Part shown: piece after piece, positions 36,988 through 41,676 of the stretch
How the letters are laid out: every line of letters begins with the position of its first letter
Numbering within the stretch: position 1 is the stretch's first letter
IMG/VR virus record: IMGVR_UViG_3300042898_004347
Span: 1-64,000 of that record
DNA from: a virus
DNA: 64,000 nucleotides
Direction: 5' to 3' (one strand)
Notes under the pieces: model-generated
Databases searched by the model: none
Seen by the model: only the letters and a program-made list of their open reading frames with translations
Told to the model about the DNA's origin: nothing
Position numbers and translations under genes: made by a program

Positions 36988-37019
36988 TAGAGTGCACTCC
37001 TAACTTTAAATTTGGTTTG

Positions 37020-37045
37020 CATAAATAGCATTTTAACTATTTATA
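37020..37045. promoter_or_regulatory. Face-to-face late promoters for divergent genes (CATAAATA + at 37020-37027 for gp4; TATAAATA - at 37038-37045 for gp48)
   Basis: Both motifs lie in the short gp48/gp4 intergenic gap. Confidence 0.7.
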
Positions 37046-37485
37046 TGGCATACCGAGGTCGATTCAGCCCAAAGAACCCAAGTAAGTACAGAGGTGACGT
37101 GATTGGCATTGTCTATCGCTCGCTCTGGGAACGACAACTTTTTCGGTGGTTAGACGAACAATCTTTTGTTGCATCATGGTCATCCGAGGAGGTTGTAATA
37201 CCATACCGATGCAAAACGGATGGTCGAATTCATAGGTACTTTGTGGATGTCAAGTTTGAATTTACGGATGGTCGCATTATGTTAATTGAGGTGAAACCGT
37301 CAAAGGAAGTGAGTCCGCCAAAGAATACTGGAAGAAAGACTCGTAGATACATCACAGAGGTTATGACGTATGCAAAGAATATCTCAAAATGGGAGGCGGC
37401 CACTGAATATGCTGCGGATCGGGGATGGATCTTTGAAATCTGGGATGAAAACATGTTAAGGAAACTGGGTATGAAGATCCTTTAG
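37045..37485 (+). CDS. gp4: Head completion nuclease gp4
   Basis: MAYRGRF.PKNP.KY.GD, YRSLWE, WSSEE, HRYFVD, IEVKP; start at ATG 37045. Confidence 0.92.
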   Translation: MAYRGRFSPKNPSKYRGDVIGIVYRSLWERQLFRWLDEQSFVASWSSEEVVIPYRCKTDGRIHRYFVDVKFEFTDGRIMLIEVKPSKEVSPPKNTGRKTRRYITEVMTYAKNISKWEAATEYAADRGWIFEIWDENMLRKLGMKIL

Positions 37486-37509: not shown

Positions 37510-38109
37510 ATGGCAGTCTCACTCTTCACTACTCTCGAAAAAGAGTTCACCACGACGGGATTCGAAAAGCGTTCCGCCCAGGCTCGAGCCTGGTTCACTG
37601 AAAGAGTTAAAGAACTGAATGGTAGAATTAATAGAGTTAAACTGTTAAAAGATGAAAATTTAACAGTTCGATCGATGCCAATATGGGGATCAATGTACAT
37701 GTTTGCATATGATCCCAAGCTAAAGAAAGAATTACCCTATTACGACCGTTTTCCTTTAGTATTAGTCATTCAGCCAGCAGAAGGCGGGTTTCTGGGTCTC
37801 AATCTTCACTATCTACATCCAAAAATCCGTGCAAAGTTTCTGGACAAATTGATGGGAACAATCTCGGATGATAAACTCACAGAGAAAACTCGTTTAAAGG
37901 TTCGTTATAGCCTCCTTGCTTCGGCAAAGAGACTTCGTGAATTTGCGCCATGTTTAAAGCATTACCTCAAGAGCCACATGAAAACCCGAGCTTCCCAGGT
38001 GTTTGCTCCGGAATGGGAGACGGCAATATTTCTTCCAACCGAACACTTTAAAGGTGCCACGAAGAATAAGGTATGGCTCGAATCACGCAAACAATTTCAG
38101 AAAATTTGA
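37510..38109 (+). CDS. gp2: DNA end protector protein gp2
   Basis: YDPKLK..LPYYDRFPL, GLNLHYL, PCLKHYL. Confidence 0.92.
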   Translation: MAVSLFTTLEKEFTTTGFEKRSAQARAWFTERVKELNGRINRVKLLKDENLTVRSMPIWGSMYMFAYDPKLKKELPYYDRFPLVLVIQPAEGGFLGLNLHYLHPKIRAKFLDKLMGTISDDKLTEKTRLKVRYSLLASAKRLREFAPCLKHYLKSHMKTRASQVFAPEWETAIFLPTEHFKGATKNKVWLESRKQFQKI

Positions 38110-38114
38110 TCTAA

Positions 38115-38819
38115 ATGGCAACACTAGTCGACAATATTCTTGGATCCAAAATCGGTAACGCCATTCTTGGTAACTCGATTGACAATTTAAAGACCTCGCT
38201 CATTAAACATGGGGGAGTTGCTCATGAAAATCGGTTCACTGTAAATTTTTCTCCGCCAAAACAGTCCTTGTTTAATTTAGATCTACGTAATATTGTCACA
38301 TCCGCTCTTTCTGGGACATTTAATGCAAAGAATCTGATTAACGATTACAGAGACATTACAATCCTGTGCGAATCCTGCTCATTGCCCGGAAGACAAATCA
38401 TGACTTTGGATTATCAGTTAGAAAAACACGCGGTAAAGCGGCCCTACAGTTTCTTTAACGAAGAGGTCAATTTTACCTTTATTCTCACTGGCGATTATTA
38501 CATGAAGAAAATTTTTGATAAGTGGTCTGAAGAAATCATGGGATTTAATAATTATCGTCTTAACTACATTAAAGACTTTGCAGTTGACGTTACAATAACC
38601 CAGTTAAATAAGAAAAATCTTCCCATCTATACTGTGGTCTTGCACAACGCATATCCAGTTACATTTAATTCAATTGTACTTGACAACACCGCGGAAAATT
38701 CAGTTCAAAAGTTTTCCGTGACCATGGCCTACGAAAACTTCTTCGTGGACAAAGTTCCTACAAGCAAAAACGCAAGCGTAACACTTGGACCTCTTAAGGT
38801 TTTAGAACTTGGAGTGTAA
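38115..38819 (+). CDS. Tail tube-like protein (gp19/gp54 family)
   Basis: CESCSLPG, FDKW, L.NAYP, FSVTMAY. Confidence 0.75.
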   Translation: MATLVDNILGSKIGNAILGNSIDNLKTSLIKHGGVAHENRFTVNFSPPKQSLFNLDLRNIVTSALSGTFNAKNLINDYRDITILCESCSLPGRQIMTLDYQLEKHAVKRPYSFFNEEVNFTFILTGDYYMKKIFDKWSEEIMGFNNYRLNYIKDFAVDVTITQLNKKNLPIYTVVLHNAYPVTFNSIVLDNTAENSVQKFSVTMAYENFFVDKVPTSKNASVTLGPLKVLELGV

Positions 38820-38873: not shown

Positions 38874-39614
38874 ATGCCACTACCGATTATTGAAACACCG
38901 AAATATGAAACAAAGCTTCCTTCCACCGGAAAGAAGGTTTTTTACCGTCCATATCTCGTCAAAGAAGAAAAGATGCTCATGATTGCACTTGAGTCTGCTG
39001 ATTCAAAGCAGATCATGCAGGCAGTCAAAGATACGATTTCAGCATGCACATACAATAAGGTGGATCCGGGTGAACTACCTATTTTTGATCTGGAGTATAT
39101 GTTTCTTCGGCTTCGGGCAAAATCTGTGGGAGAAATCTCGAAGCTCAATCTAAAATGTACCAGCTGTGAAAAGAACACTCGTGTTGATGTAAATTTAGAT
39201 GAAATTAAGATTGATGTAAAGAATCTTCCTTCTAACACAATTCAACTGACTGACACAATTGGAATCACAATGAATTGGCCCAAAGTTGATTTAGTTGCTG
39301 AGTTTAGTGGTGAAGGTGATCTGGAGAAACAGAATAAAGCAGAATTGGCTTTTAATATCATTGCTGGATGTATTGAATCTATCTTTGATAGCAAGAGGGT
39401 CTATCCCGCAAAGGATCAAACCAAAGCAGAATTACACGAATTCCTCGAGTCATTGAATCAGAATCAATTCAAAAAGATTCAAGAATTCATTGAGGCTATG
39501 CCAAAATTAGAACATAATGTTGAGTTTGAATGCGCACATTGCAAGACTAAAAATTCTGTACTCATCAAGGGTATTCAAAGTTTTTTCTCATCGCCCTCTC
39601 CCACGACAGTTTGA
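38874..39614 (+). CDS. gp26: Baseplate hub assembly protein gp26
   Basis: MPLP...PKY...LPST, YRPYLVKEEK, FDLEYMFL.LRAKSVGE, two CxxC. Confidence 0.9.
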   Translation: MPLPIIETPKYETKLPSTGKKVFYRPYLVKEEKMLMIALESADSKQIMQAVKDTISACTYNKVDPGELPIFDLEYMFLRLRAKSVGEISKLNLKCTSCEKNTRVDVNLDEIKIDVKNLPSNTIQLTDTIGITMNWPKVDLVAEFSGEGDLEKQNKAELAFNIIAGCIESIFDSKRVYPAKDQTKAELHEFLESLNQNQFKKIQEFIEAMPKLEHNVEFECAHCKTKNSVLIKGIQSFFSSPSPTTV

Positions 39615-39701
39615 TGAATCATTATCAGACTAATTTCGCCCTTATGCAACATCACAAATACAGTCTATCAGAATTAGAACTGATGTTGCCGTGGGAGAGG
39701 G
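39581..39701 (+). promoter_or_regulatory. Candidate -1 programmed ribosomal frameshift signal
   Basis: T TTT TTC at 39581-39587 in correct phase; 6-nt spacer; 39594-39605 is the exact reverse complement of 39690-39701. Confidence 0.65.
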
Positions 39702-39778
39702 AAATCTACGTAGCGCTCTTAGTGGATCATGTCAAAGAGGAGAACGAAAAGGCTAGGAAGAGAACTACATCTAAGTAA
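39614..39778 (+). CDS. gp51: Baseplate hub assembly chaperone gp51 (54 aa, below ORF-track cutoff)
   Basis: MNHYQTNFALMQHHKYSLSELELMLPWEREIYV..., characteristic gp51 motif; -1 frame relative to gp26. Confidence 0.85.
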   Translation: MNHYQTNFALMQHHKYSLSELELMLPWEREIYVALLVDHVKEENEKARKRTTSK

Positions 39779-39792
39779 AGAAACATACCATC

Positions 39793-41676
39793 ATGGCTGA
39801 AGCAAAAGACAAAAACGAAACATTCAAGAATATCCTCCTTGAGCTCATGGTCTCGAATGAGACTCTTGATAAGATTAATGCGAACACACTCAATGCCTCT
39901 GAGATGGGACTTGAGGCTGCCGCTAGTCTTGAATCATTAGTCGCAAATCAGTCATTAAGCAACTCAGGAGGATCTGCAGCCAACGAGGGCGGTTCTCAGC
40001 CGCAGATGGAGTTTCTGACTGAGGGTATGATTTCTATTTTAAATCTTATTGCAACAGATTCGCTCAGAACAGTGGTTGCGTTAAATGCTATAAGCCAGTT
40101 AATGAGCGACACGTTTGAACTGAACAAATCTGAGGCTTTAAAAAACGAGGAAGCTCGGCGCGAGGCTGAAAAGAATAAAAACCGAAATGCTGTGGCTGAC
40201 GTAATTGAAACTCCAGAAATGGAAAGCAGCTTTGGAATAATGGGAACTCTTGCTGCAATTGCTGGACTTGTAGTTGGATTTGTTACTGGAGTCGTCAGTG
40301 CTTTAGTGAGTACCTTTACAAAGGTCATGACAGCAATTGGTAAATTCTTAAAATTGGATGTTCTTCTTGCTAAAATTGGTCTGAGTTCGGCTAAAATTGC
40401 TGAGTTTTTTAAGCCATTAACTGACGGTTTTAAAAAGATATCCACGAATATAAGTGAGGCATTTACATTTGTAAAAACTGCCATTTCAGAATCATCCTTG
40501 GTCAAAAATATCAAAAAATTCTTTGAACCATTAAAAGATCTATTTGCATTCTTCTCAAAGGAAGGATCAATCATTAGCAAAATTACTAGTCTGGGTGGAA
40601 AGGTGAGTTCTTGGTTTTCAAAATTAACAGAAATATTTGGTCTATTCTTCCGAGTTGGAAAGGTATTCGGTAAGCTTTTTGGATATGTTGGAATTGCAAT
40701 ATCAGTATTCGAATCAATCAGCAAGGCCTTTGAAGTCTTCCAAAAGACTGGCGATATTGGTGCCGCGCTTGAAGTTGGAGTTGTCGGTTTCATAAATGCC
40801 TTTACAGGAGAAATCCTAGATCTATTAAAGGATGCTGTCTCCTGGATCGCAGGTGCACTTGGATTTAAAGATGTAGAAAAGTTCCTTGATTCATTTAGCT
40901 TTACTGACATTATTGCGGAATTATTTCATCGGTTCATTAAAGCGGGCAGGGATATGTTTGAGAAATTCTTTCAAAATTTTGTCGACATATTTGACGATAT
41001 TTCGACAAAATTCAACGAAGGGGATATTATCGGAGGTATTGCAGAAATTTTTAGGGGGTTTTTAAAAACTGCGGCAACGCTCCTTCTAGATATACCAAAA
41101 AACCTTTTGGCCAGTGCTGCGGAAGGTCTTGGTTTTGCTTCATTTGCAAAAGATGTAAGAGATTTTAGTTTTTCTTCATTGTTCGGCGGCACAAACACAA
41201 AAACTGGAGGAGACGTTCAGACAGATACGAAAAGTATTACTGCTGCAGCGGGCGACACAACGGCAGCAAAGGCAGCAGCAAAGGTTCTTGAGAAAACAAA
41301 AGATCAGCAGAAAGGCGCGGCTGGGGAAAGCGCAGAAGAAAGCAATCCTCTTGTGAATCTTTTTGGATCCGATCCATTTGGTGATTTTAATAAAGCAGTA
41401 TTAGAAAACTTTAACAGGACGACAAATCCTTCAGGAGCTGCAATTACTCCAGCCACGGTCGAAAATGTTGGTGCTCAGATTGCTGCACTTGGCACTAATA
41501 CATCCGATATGGTACAGGATGCGGCAGGGCGAGCAGCATCTTCAGTCGTGGCTCCAGTAACTAATACTAAAAATAACACAACAAACAATAGCAGCGTTAC
41601 AATTCAGCAATCGAATCTGCCGGATAAGACTGCGCTTTCTCTTCGTCCATCTTGGGTATTCCCAGGCGGATACTAA
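39793..41676 (+). CDS. Putative tape measure / gp29-like protein
   Basis: 627 aa, helical with aromatic periodicity and hydrophobic segments, Asn/Thr-rich tail; follows gp26/gp51. Confidence 0.65.
   Translation: MAEAKDKNETFKNILLELMVSNETLDKINANTLNASEMGLEAAASLESLVANQSLSNSGGSAANEGGSQPQMEFLTEGMISILNLIATDSLRTVVALNAISQLMSDTFELNKSEALKNEEARREAEKNKNRNAVADVIETPEMESSFGIMGTLAAIAGLVVGFVTGVVSALVSTFTKVMTAIGKFLKLDVLLAKIGLSSAKIAEFFKPLTDGFKKISTNISEAFTFVKTAISESSLVKNIKKFFEPLKDLFAFFSKEGSIISKITSLGGKVSSWFSKLTEIFGLFFRVGKVFGKLFGYVGIAISVFESISKAFEVFQKTGDIGAALEVGVVGFINAFTGEILDLLKDAVSWIAGALGFKDVEKFLDSFSFTDIIAELFHRFIKAGRDMFEKFFQNFVDIFDDISTKFNEGDIIGGIAEIFRGFLKTAATLLLDIPKNLLASAAEGLGFASFAKDVRDFSFSSLFGGTNTKTGGDVQTDTKSITAAAGDTTAAKAAAKVLEKTKDQQKGAAGESAEESNPLVNLFGSDPFGDFNKAVLENFNRTTNPSGAAITPATVENVGAQIAALGTNTSDMVQDAAGRAASSVVAPVTNTKNNTTNNSSVTIQQSNLPDKTALSLRPSWVFPGGY

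What the first reader, a model, noticed from the sequence alone, without database searches (positions are those of the whole stretch)
39581..39778. Predicted -1 ribosomal frameshift fusing gp26 to gp51 ahead of the tape measure gene
Seen: T TTT TTC heptamer in phase near the end of gp26; after a 6-nt spacer CCCTCTCCCACG (39594-39605) pairs perfectly with CGTGGGAGAGGG (39690-39701), enclosing a further hairpin; the -1 frame is open from the slip site (FLIALSHDSL) into gp51, with a stop at 39548 and no ATG before 39614. Established: lambda G/GT-type tail chaperones use such a frameshift between tail tube and tape measure genes. Inference: tube-like gene, gp26, gp51, tape measure here is a G/GT equivalent; to my knowledge this is not a standard annotation for T4-like phages.
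Basis: partly seen in the sequence, partly recalled or inferred. Interest (0 to 1): 0.8.

Follow-up and report, generated by a model that had tools for sequence, protein, structure and literature searches.

The report
Frameshift in T4-like tail chaperone gene
One tail-assembly gene of this uncultured T4-like aquatic phage very probably makes a 246-residue and a 301-residue protein because some ribosomes slip back one base on a conserved TTTTTTC run; the signal is real, but the same chaperone pair and its poly-T site in T4-like phages were already described in 2022.

Summary
The heptamer T_TTT_TTC (39581-39587) is in phase near the end of a gp26-like gene. A perfect 12-bp stem starts 6 nt downstream. 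The -1 frame runs open into the small gp51-like ORF.

The heptamer is in phase in all of about 50 related loci, down to 23% protein identity. The -1 peptide keeps its length and sequence from the slip site on and has no conserved start codon.

T4 gp51 is a gp26-like body plus this same extension. The N-terminal 90 residues of gp26 fold like the three solved phage tail assembly chaperones. The G/GT reading is therefore supported.

The 12-bp stem is limited to this clade. Other clades have different hairpins at the same place, or none.

This is not new. [quoted passage not shown] A later paper cites them for poly-T -1 frameshift signals in those genes. I could not read the 2022 paper itself.

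This scan has noted the same thing in about 280 other genomes, and earlier follow-ups that reported "no published report" missed this paper. No GenBank record I looked at annotates the frameshift. Whether the slip is ribosomal or transcriptional is untested.

The parts
38115..38819 (+). Tail-tube-like gene (gp54/gp48/gp19 type tube initiator paralogue) directly upstream
   Evidence: phrog_3629 and phrog_45 'tail tube', E 2.5e-32 and 2.9e-29. The Pfam Phage_T4_gp19 hit is weak, E 8e-5, below the cut-off. The syntenic genes are annotated tail tube or tube initiator in Mosig, KVP40 and S13.
38874..39614 (+). gp26-like gene, the short chaperone form (TAC-N, 246 aa), zero frame, stop TGA 39612-39614
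   Evidence: PF12322 T4_baseplate E 1.8e-65 and phrog_150 E 1.1e-68. The AF2 model has pLDDT 84 and pTM 0.78. Residues 1-95 match the TAC structures 3fgx, 3klu and 2ob9 at Z 7.0, 6.8 and 6.8, the top 3 of 48,161 chains.
39581..39587 (+). Slip site T_TTT_TTC (AGT TTT TTC in the zero frame)
   Evidence: In phase. TTTTTT is invariant in 34 distinct junction sequences plus KVP40, Cr30, S13, RL38J1, Ps15 and Aeromonas G2.
39588..39593 (+). 6-nt spacer between slip site and stem
   Evidence: Sequence and MFE structure.
39594..39605 (+). 5' arm of the 12-bp long-range stem (CCCTCTCCCACG). It codes ALSH in the -1 frame and PSPT in the zero frame.
   Evidence: The arm is kept in the window clade, the L010 clade, Mosig and Melnitz, and partly in L021 and L023.
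39608..39689 (+). Inner hairpins enclosed by the long-range stem (39608-39631 and 39646-39689)
   Evidence: MFE structure. They are poorly conserved outside the clade (helices 2-4).
39690..39701 (+). 3' arm of the stem (CGTGGGAGAGGG). It lies on the codons of the conserved P-W-E-R-E motif of the extension.
39581..39778 (+). -1 frame extension (FF + 63 residues, stop TAA 39776-39778). The annotated small 'gp51' ORF 39614-39778 is its 3' part. The predicted long form (TAC-NC) is 238 + 63 = 301 aa.
   Evidence: phrog_634 'baseplate hub assembly catalyst' E 3.3e-23, and also the C-terminal end of the phrog_150 profile. It matches T4-type gp51 residues 200-244, E 3e-5. Rare in-frame fusions of 296-301 aa carry the same ..FFRIALSHDSL.. 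junction.
39793..41676 (+). 627-aa probable tape measure protein
   Evidence: The assignment rests on position and size. It has no Pfam hit, no PDB sequence hit, and no pairwise similarity to T4-type gp29 or the Cr30 TMP. The protein atlas gives a cluster with PF25671 T4_Tape_measure at score 0.94, which is a lead only.

Best explanation
The gp26-like gene is this phage's tail assembly chaperone gene, and it is decoded in two ways.

- **Short form.** Most ribosomes read the zero frame to TGA 39612-39614 and make a 246-residue protein (TAC-N).
- **Long form.** A minority slip back one base while the two tRNA-Phe sit on UUU_UUC in the heptamer U_UUU_UUC (39581-39587). This is probably helped by the very stable RNA structure that starts 6 nt downstream. 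These ribosomes continue in the -1 frame to 39778 and make a 301-residue protein (TAC-NC). Its last 63 residues correspond to the C-terminal tail of T4 gp51.
- **Inferred role.** By analogy with lambda gpG/gpGT, the shared body would coat the tape measure protein encoded just downstream. The rare extension would recruit tube subunits, and neither form would stay in the virion.

What is shown here: the signal, its conservation, the coding character of the -1 frame, the homology to T4 gp26 and gp51, and the TAC fold.

What is inferred: that the slip happens, that it is ribosomal, its efficiency, and the binding partners.
For: 1. The slip site, spacer and stem are present as described, and the fold has z -5.84.
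2. T_TTT_TTY (once TTTTTTG) is in phase at the end of gp26 in the 39 IMG/VR loci that reach the junction, and in Mosig, Melnitz, P-SSM2, Syn19, Sf-FR1, KVP40, Cr30, S13, RL38J1, Ps15 and Aeromonas G2. These span Kyanoviridae, Straboviridae and Pootjesviridae, and gp26 identity falls to 23%.
3. The zero frame stops 0-9 codons after FF. The -1 frame is always open for 61-68 codons. A 30-sequence alignment of the junction has no gaps.
4. In the 57 columns between the heptamer and the first fairly common Met, variation is three-periodic in the -1 frame (entropy 0.89, 0.73 and 1.45 at codon positions 1, 2 and 3). No start-codon position is conserved, and almost no candidate start has a Shine-Dalgarno match.
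5. T4-type gp51 (249 aa) aligns with gp26 over 161 residues (E 1e-5). Its residues 200-244 align with the window's -1 peptide (E 3e-5). T4 therefore makes the long form from a separate gene.
6. The held genome record (140 kb, 84% complete) has one gp26 locus and one extension segment, so it has no separate long gene.
7. Residues 1-95 of gp26 match 3fgx, 3klu and 2ob9 at Z 7.0, 6.8 and 6.8, the top three of 48,161 chains. PMC9603447 names these three as tail assembly chaperones.
8. There is a strong structure downstream of the run (z -5.84) and none upstream (z +0.45). This is the layout expected of a ribosomal stimulator.
9. [quoted passage not shown] Poly-T runs are cited as -1 frameshift signals in TAC-N genes of T4-like phages, with reference to Vladimirov et al. 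2022 (PMC12846349).
Against: - No protein or RNA data exist for this phage. The fusion product is predicted, not seen.
- The 12-bp stem has little true covariation. Both arms lie on conserved codons, RNAalifold finds no consensus structure across the 30 sequences, and several clades show no significant structure after the run (L025, L026, L029, L033, L039, L041).
- In this phage an ATG (39614) overlaps the gp26 stop as TGATG, so some free 54-residue peptide could also be made by re-initiation.
[quoted passage not shown] I could not read the paper to see whether that refers only to T4's two genes or also to the poly-T phages.
- A run of T could also support RNA polymerase slippage, which would give the same protein.
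Confidence: 0.7

Rival explanations
1. Transcriptional slippage. RNA polymerase adds one extra U while copying the T run. A fraction of mRNAs then carry gp26 and the extension in one frame, and the same 301-residue protein is made without any ribosomal slip.
For: The conserved element is a homopolymer. It is 7-8 T long in about half of the clades, for example TTTTTTTT in Melnitz, L026, L029 and L033, and several of those clades lack a downstream structure. [quoted passage not shown] Rare in-frame fusions in metagenome proteins show what one extra T produces.
Against: In this phage and about half of the relatives the run is only 6 T. From general knowledge, this is short for bacterial RNA polymerase slippage. 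The run always sits in X_XXY_YYZ phase. In the window a very stable structure lies 6 nt downstream and nothing significant lies upstream, which fits a ribosomal stimulator and not a slippage stimulator. PRFect's authors read the 2022 paper as describing two separate genes, not slippage.
Confidence: 0.17
2. No fusion in this phage. gp26 ends at TGA 39612-39614, and the 54-residue gp51-like peptide is made on its own from ATG 39614 by termination-reinitiation (TGATG). The heptamer is only the codons of a conserved Phe-Phe.
For: The stop and start overlap by one base. GenBank records of relatives annotate a separate small gene.
Against: The ATG is not conserved even at 72% identity, where the L010 clade has GTA, and it has no Shine-Dalgarno sequence. 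In Mosig, Melnitz, L033, L037 and others the conserved peptide starts well upstream of any start codon. Coding periodicity in the -1 frame begins at the heptamer. The codon before FF always ends in T and the first Phe codon is always TTT. T4 gp51 carries the extension fused to a gp26-like body.
Confidence: 0.08
3. A chance coincidence of a T run, an inverted repeat and an open frame, with no function.
For: T runs are common: the + strand of the window has 35 T6 runs. A 12-bp inverted repeat within 100 nt is expected about 0.4 times per 64 kb by my rough estimate.
Against: Only 1 of the 4 in-phase heptamers has a long -1 frame. The arrangement is conserved in about 50 loci across several phage families.
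Confidence: 0.02

Closest known systems
[quoted passage not shown]
   Same: This is the same gene family (gp26/gp51, PF12322) with the same short-form and long-form logic. A later paper cites this work for poly-T -1 frameshift signals in TAC-N genes of T4-like phages (PMC12846349). PRFect cites it for T4-like phages that carry a short gene plus a long fusion gene (PMC10885494).
   Different: The paper is not in the library. I therefore cannot say whether it covers this clade, the downstream RNA structures, or which mechanism it favours for the poly-T phages. This window adds one uncultured aquatic phage and a long-range stem specific to its clade.
Phage lambda gpG/gpGT and the conserved -1 frameshift of tail assembly chaperone genes (Levin 1993; Xu, Hendrix and Duda 2004; summarised in PMC5009743)
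   Same: [quoted passage not shown] Both lie between tube-type and tape-measure genes. The N-domain has the TAC fold.
   Different: The slip site is U_UUU_UUC, not G_GGA_AAG. The short form is 246 aa, with an extra split zinc-ribbon domain after the ~90-residue TAC core, where lambda gpG is a small protein. There is no detectable sequence similarity. The upstream gene is a tube-initiator paralogue, not the major tube gene.
Phage T4 gp26 (208 aa) and gp51 (249 aa), hub assembly chaperones (PMC3004832, Table 2)
   Same: The proteins are homologous. The window's gp26 hits PF12322, its -1 peptide aligns to gp51 residues 200-244, and gp51 residues 17-171 align to gp26.
   Different: In T4-type phages (RB14) genes 26 and 51 are separate, divergently transcribed genes with no overlap. 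Here one locus must supply both forms.
GTTTTT -1 frameshift in the TAC genes of Vandenendeviridae and Andersonviridae (Pseudomonas phage Adele, PMC12846349)
   Same: Both have a T-run slip site at the 3' end of TAC-N and an uninterrupted -1 frame through 'intergenic' DNA. Both were argued from comparative genomics alone.
   Different: It is a different protein family and a shorter run. The shorter-run type also occurs in PF12322 relatives: Kuja, an Ackermannviridae phage, and Vibrio phage K493 and Klebsiella phage KFM-TASP06, whose records give no family.

Membership tests
Frameshifted tail assembly chaperone (lambda G/GT type, TAC-N/TAC-NC) | [quoted passage not shown] | tested here: met
   T_TTT_TTC at 39581-39587, 31 nt before the stop. 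It is conserved in phase in all relatives examined.
Frameshifted tail assembly chaperone (lambda G/GT type, TAC-N/TAC-NC) | -1 ORF that overlaps the end of the gene, is open from the slip site, has no conserved start of its own, and is conserved as protein | tested here: met
   The -1 frame is open for 61-68 codons in every locus. Periodicity in the -1 frame starts at the heptamer, and no start position or SD is conserved.
Frameshifted tail assembly chaperone (lambda G/GT type, TAC-N/TAC-NC) | TAC fold of the shared body | tested here: met
   Model residues 1-95 match 3fgx, 3klu and 2ob9 at Z 7.0, 6.8 and 6.8 with 84-85 residues aligned, the top 3 of 48,161 chains. The next rows score 5.0 and below. 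The three are named as TACs in PMC9603447. Foldseek alone gave only weak local hits to the same entries.
Frameshifted tail assembly chaperone (lambda G/GT type, TAC-N/TAC-NC) | Position between the tail tube gene and the tape measure gene | tested here: inconclusive
   The upstream gene is tube-like. The downstream 627-aa protein has the size and place of a TMP and an atlas lead to PF25671 at 0.94, but no sequence match to T4-type gp29 or the Cr30 TMP.
Frameshifted tail assembly chaperone (lambda G/GT type, TAC-N/TAC-NC) | Two products made in a fixed low ratio; the long form is required for tail assembly; neither is in the virion | not testable with these tools
   This needs a reporter assay, proteomics and genetics.
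T4 gp26/gp51 family (Pfam PF12322 T4_baseplate) | Significant match to PF12322 | tested here: met
   E 1.8e-65, 221 bits against a cut-off of 24.5.
T4 gp26/gp51 family (Pfam PF12322 T4_baseplate) | C-terminal extension homologous to the tail of T4 gp51 | tested here: met
   BLASTP E 3e-5 to RB14 gp51 residues 200-244. phrog_634 E 3.3e-23.
T4 gp26/gp51 family (Pfam PF12322 T4_baseplate) | Short and long forms encoded by two separate genes (the T4 arrangement) | tested here: not met
   The 140-kb record has a single gp26 locus and a single extension segment. The record is 84% complete, so a second gene in the missing part is not excluded.
Programmed transcriptional slippage site | Long homopolymer run, usually with a stimulating hairpin upstream in the nascent RNA | tested here: inconclusive
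   The run is 6 T here and 7-8 T in other clades. There is no significant upstream structure (z +0.45). The length threshold comes from general knowledge and was not tested for this polymerase.

The most novel reading that the evidence does not exclude
The recoding is truly ribosomal, and each lineage tunes it with its own downstream RNA element placed 3-8 nt after the same invariant T run. In this clade that element is an unusual long-range 12-bp helix. Its 3' arm is made of the codons of the extension's most conserved motif (P-W-E-R-E), 84 nt away. Lineages with a stop codon directly after the run have no such structure. If the 2022 paper argued against translational frameshifting for the poly-T phages as well, this would correct it. 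If it did not, the stimulator turnover is an addition to it.
Probability: 0.3. Interest if true: 0.45.

Novelty: already known. Interest (0 to 1): 0.27.

Why it matters
T4 was long quoted as the one long-tailed phage without the G/GT-type chaperone frameshift. The gp26/gp51 locus closes that gap and shows that the two-form chaperone is universal in long-tailed phages.

For this window the practical value lies in annotation. The small 'gp51' and 'hypothetical' ORFs behind gp26 in hundreds of T4-like genomes are the -1 part of one gene and should be annotated as a ribosomal-slippage join. None of the 15 GenBank records I opened that carry the slip-site arrangement does so.

The biological point is already published, so the finding adds little beyond another instance and a stimulator structure specific to one clade.

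Tried and rejected
- **One conserved stimulatory structure for the whole family: rejected.** RNAalifold on 30 junctions gives no consensus. Other clades have different hairpins or none.
- **Sequence search of gp26 against PDB chains.** Nothing scored below E 0.3. Foldseek had no hit at E <= 0.001. Only the exhaustive VIA search showed the TAC fold.
- **Identifying the 627-aa protein as a tape measure by sequence.** There was no Pfam, PDB, T4-type gp29 or Cr30 match. Only an atlas lead remains.
- **Reading Vladimirov et al. 2022.** The paper is not held, whether looked up by DOI or by PubMed id. I relied on its title and on two citing papers.
- **Early literature searches.** Searches with gp26/gp51/frameshift terms found nothing relevant. 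This is probably why earlier follow-ups in this scan called the slip unpublished.
- **Second structure job.** I did not use it on the long form, because no solved structure of a T-type extension is known to compare it with.

Full report
**1. What is in the window**

The region lies in a late morphogenesis block of a T4-like phage record of 140 kb, estimated 84% complete. The gene order on the + strand, is:

| Coordinates | Gene |
|---|---|
| 37012-37485 | gp4-like head completion |
| 37510-38109 | gp2-like DNA end protector |
| 38115-38819 | tail-tube-like protein |
| 38874-39614 | gp26-like protein, 246 aa (PF12322, E 1.8e-65) |
| 39614-39778 | 54-codon ORF matching phrog_634, 'baseplate hub assembly catalyst' (E 3.3e-23) |
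| 39793-41676 | 627-aa protein with no family |

The 54-codon ORF also matches the last 40 positions of the gp26 profile phrog_150. This was the first hint that some family members carry it as a C-terminal extension.

**2. The observation**

All details hold.

- The zero frame reads AGT TTT TTC, so T_TTT_TTC (39581-39587) is a correctly phased slip heptamer.
- After a 6-nt spacer, 39594-39605 pairs perfectly with 39690-39701.
- The 146-nt segment folds at -46.1 kcal/mol with z -5.84. It is the most stable of 226 local windows.
- The -1 frame is closed at 39548 and then open to 39778.
- Of the four in-phase TTTTTTY heptamers in ORFs of 100 aa or more in the window, only this one has a long -1 frame.

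**3. Comparative evidence**

*Where the similarity lies.* A blastn search of the gp26-gp51 region against phage genomes matched mainly the junction segment (query 690-890). The hits were cyanophages, Pelagibacter phage Mosig and the Methylophilales Melnitz phages.

*The slip site.* I collected 44 IMG/VR loci and annotated loci from Mosig, P-SSM2, Melnitz, Syn19, Sf-FR1, KVP40, Cr30, S13, RL38J1, Ps15 and Aeromonas G2. Every locus has TTTTTT followed by C or T (G in RL38J1), in the same phase at the end of gp26. The zero frame stops 0-9 codons later. The -1 frame is open for 61-68 codons.

*The -1 peptide.* Thirty junctions align without a single gap. The consensus begins FF[LR][IV][AS]L[SCG]H..L..[YH]Y..NFALMQHHKYSL.E.E.M.P[WF]ERE.Y. 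Between the heptamer and the first fairly common Met, column entropy is 0.89, 0.73 and 1.45 at -1-frame codon positions 1, 2 and 3. This is the signature of translated sequence. No start-codon position is conserved, and almost no candidate start has a Shine-Dalgarno match. In Mosig the annotated small gene starts 30 nt after the gp26 stop, yet the peptide RIALSHDSL upstream of it is conserved. The window's own ATG 39614 is GTA in the clade at 72% identity.

*More distant relatives.* In Kuja (Ackermannviridae) and in Vibrio phage K493 and Klebsiella phage KFM-TASP06, whose records give no family, the run is shorter (CTTTTTC, ATTTTC). The -1 frame still continues into a homologous peptide.

**4. 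Link to T4**

In T4-type phage RB14, genes 26 and 51 are separate and divergent. gp51 residues 17-171 align with gp26 (E 1e-5). gp51 residues 200-244 align with the window's -1 peptide (E 3e-5). T4 gp51 is therefore the long form, a gp26-like body plus the extension, encoded by its own gene. The window's genome record holds only one gp26 locus and one extension, so both forms must come from this locus.

A search for longer proteins that contain the extension found only a few singleton in-frame fusions of 296-301 aa, with the junction ..FFRIALSHDSL... This is exactly the predicted frameshift product.

**5. Fold**

An AlphaFold2 model of gp26 built on 19 sequences has pLDDT 84 and pTM 0.78.

- Foldseek found nothing significant.
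- The exhaustive VIA search ranked 3fgx, 3klu and 2ob9 first, second and third of 48,161 chains. They score Z 7.0, 6.8 and 6.8 with 84-85 residues aligned to model residues 1-95.
- 2ob9 is the HK97 tail assembly chaperone. PMC9603447 states that all three are phage tail assembly chaperones, citing Pell et al. 2013.
- The rest of gp26 gives weak hits to zinc-ribbon proteins. This fits two CxxC pairs about 125 residues apart.

**6. The RNA structure**

The 12-bp helix is real and very stable in this phage, and it sits at the canonical distance from the slip site. It is kept in the window clade, the 72%-identity clade, Mosig and Melnitz, with a C-to-U change that gives G-U. It is partly kept in L021 and L023.

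Both arms lie on conserved codons (ALSH and PWERE), so conservation alone does not prove selection on pairing, and true compensatory changes are few. Across all 30 sequences there is no consensus structure. The other clades differ:

| Clade | Element after the run |
|---|---|
| P-SSM2, Sf-FR1, L043, L047, Cr30 | local hairpins |
| L032, L038 | GCTCTCG/CGAGAGC long-range helix |
| L028, L037, L046 | GCTGAG/CTCAGC helix |
| L025, L026, L029, L033, L039, L041 (mostly TAA or TAG right after the run) | nothing significant |

The slip site is universal and the stimulator is lineage-specific. Upstream of the run the window has no significant structure (z +0.45).

**7. Mechanism**

The best-supported reading is a programmed -1 ribosomal frameshift that gives TAC-N (246 aa) and TAC-NC (301 aa). 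It would work like lambda gpG/gpGT on the tape measure encoded downstream.

That downstream gene is a tape measure by place and size, plus an atlas lead (PF25671, 0.94). Sequence comparison gives no support.

Transcriptional slippage on the T run would give the same protein and cannot be excluded. The 6-T length, the strict phase and the downstream position of the structure argue against it here. Free initiation at ATG 39614 may add a small peptide in this phage but cannot explain the family-wide pattern.

**8. What is known**

- The review PMC5009743 states that the G-T frameshift is conserved among long-tailed phages 'except T4'.
- My first searches with gp26/gp51 terms found nothing.
[quoted passage not shown] PRFect summarises it as T4-like phages carrying a short gene and a long fusion gene.
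- The Adele paper (PMC12846349) cites the same work for poly-T -1 frameshift signals in TAC-N genes of T4-like phages.
- The 2022 paper itself is not held.

The chaperone identity of gp26/gp51 and the poly-T site are therefore published. What I cannot tell is how far that paper covers this clade or the RNA structures.

**9. Relation to earlier notes of this scan**

The same signal has been noted in about 280 genomes. Several follow-ups reported that no paper describes it. That statement does not hold. Their other points do hold: the conserved TTTTTTC, T4's two genes, the TAC fold and the 'except T4' quote. I checked each of these here.

**10. Verdict**

It is already known in outline and is still missing from standard annotation.

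Noticed in passing
window 38874-39614 (gp26 residues about 90-100 and 220-230): Beyond its ~90-residue TAC core, gp26 has two CxxC pairs about 125 residues apart (KCTSCEK and ECAHCK). In the model they come together, and the region gives weak fold hits to zinc-ribbon proteins (LysW, NrdR, ZitP; Z about 3). T4-type gp26 has the equivalent Cys pairs. Lambda-type chaperones have no such domain.
   Followed up: partly
L060 2150-2400, L061 2190-2450, L062 2040-2300: gp26 relatives in Vibrio phage Kuja (Ackermannviridae), Klebsiella phage KFM-TASP06 and Vibrio phage K493 have only a 4-5 T run (CTTTTTC, ATTTTC) that is not a full X_XXY_YYZ heptamer. The -1 frame still continues into a homologous peptide (..ITLSDHSLEEFF.., ..MPWHL..). 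This suggests single-tRNA P-site slippage in those lineages.
   Followed up: partly
P0002, P0003, P0005 (metagenome proteins of 296-301 aa): These rare singleton proteins carry gp26 and the extension in one frame, with the junction ..FFRIALSHDSL... They could be natural one-T insertions or homopolymer assembly errors.
   Followed up: no
window 39581-39778: The large protein database tags the extension with Pfam PF28602, which is absent from the local Pfam copy (the 54-aa ORF got no Pfam hit). A dedicated family for this segment therefore now exists.
   Followed up: no
L053 2711-2890 (Cronobacter phage S13) and L059 2193-2372 (Aeromonas phage G2): In these GenBank records the -1 extension is not annotated at all. 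About 165 nt of 'intergenic' DNA after gp26 is the conserved -1 ORF.
   Followed up: yes
window 37012-37485: The gp4-like head completion protein matches Pfam Tn7_TnsA-like_N (E 2.8e-16), a nuclease-type fold.
   Followed up: no
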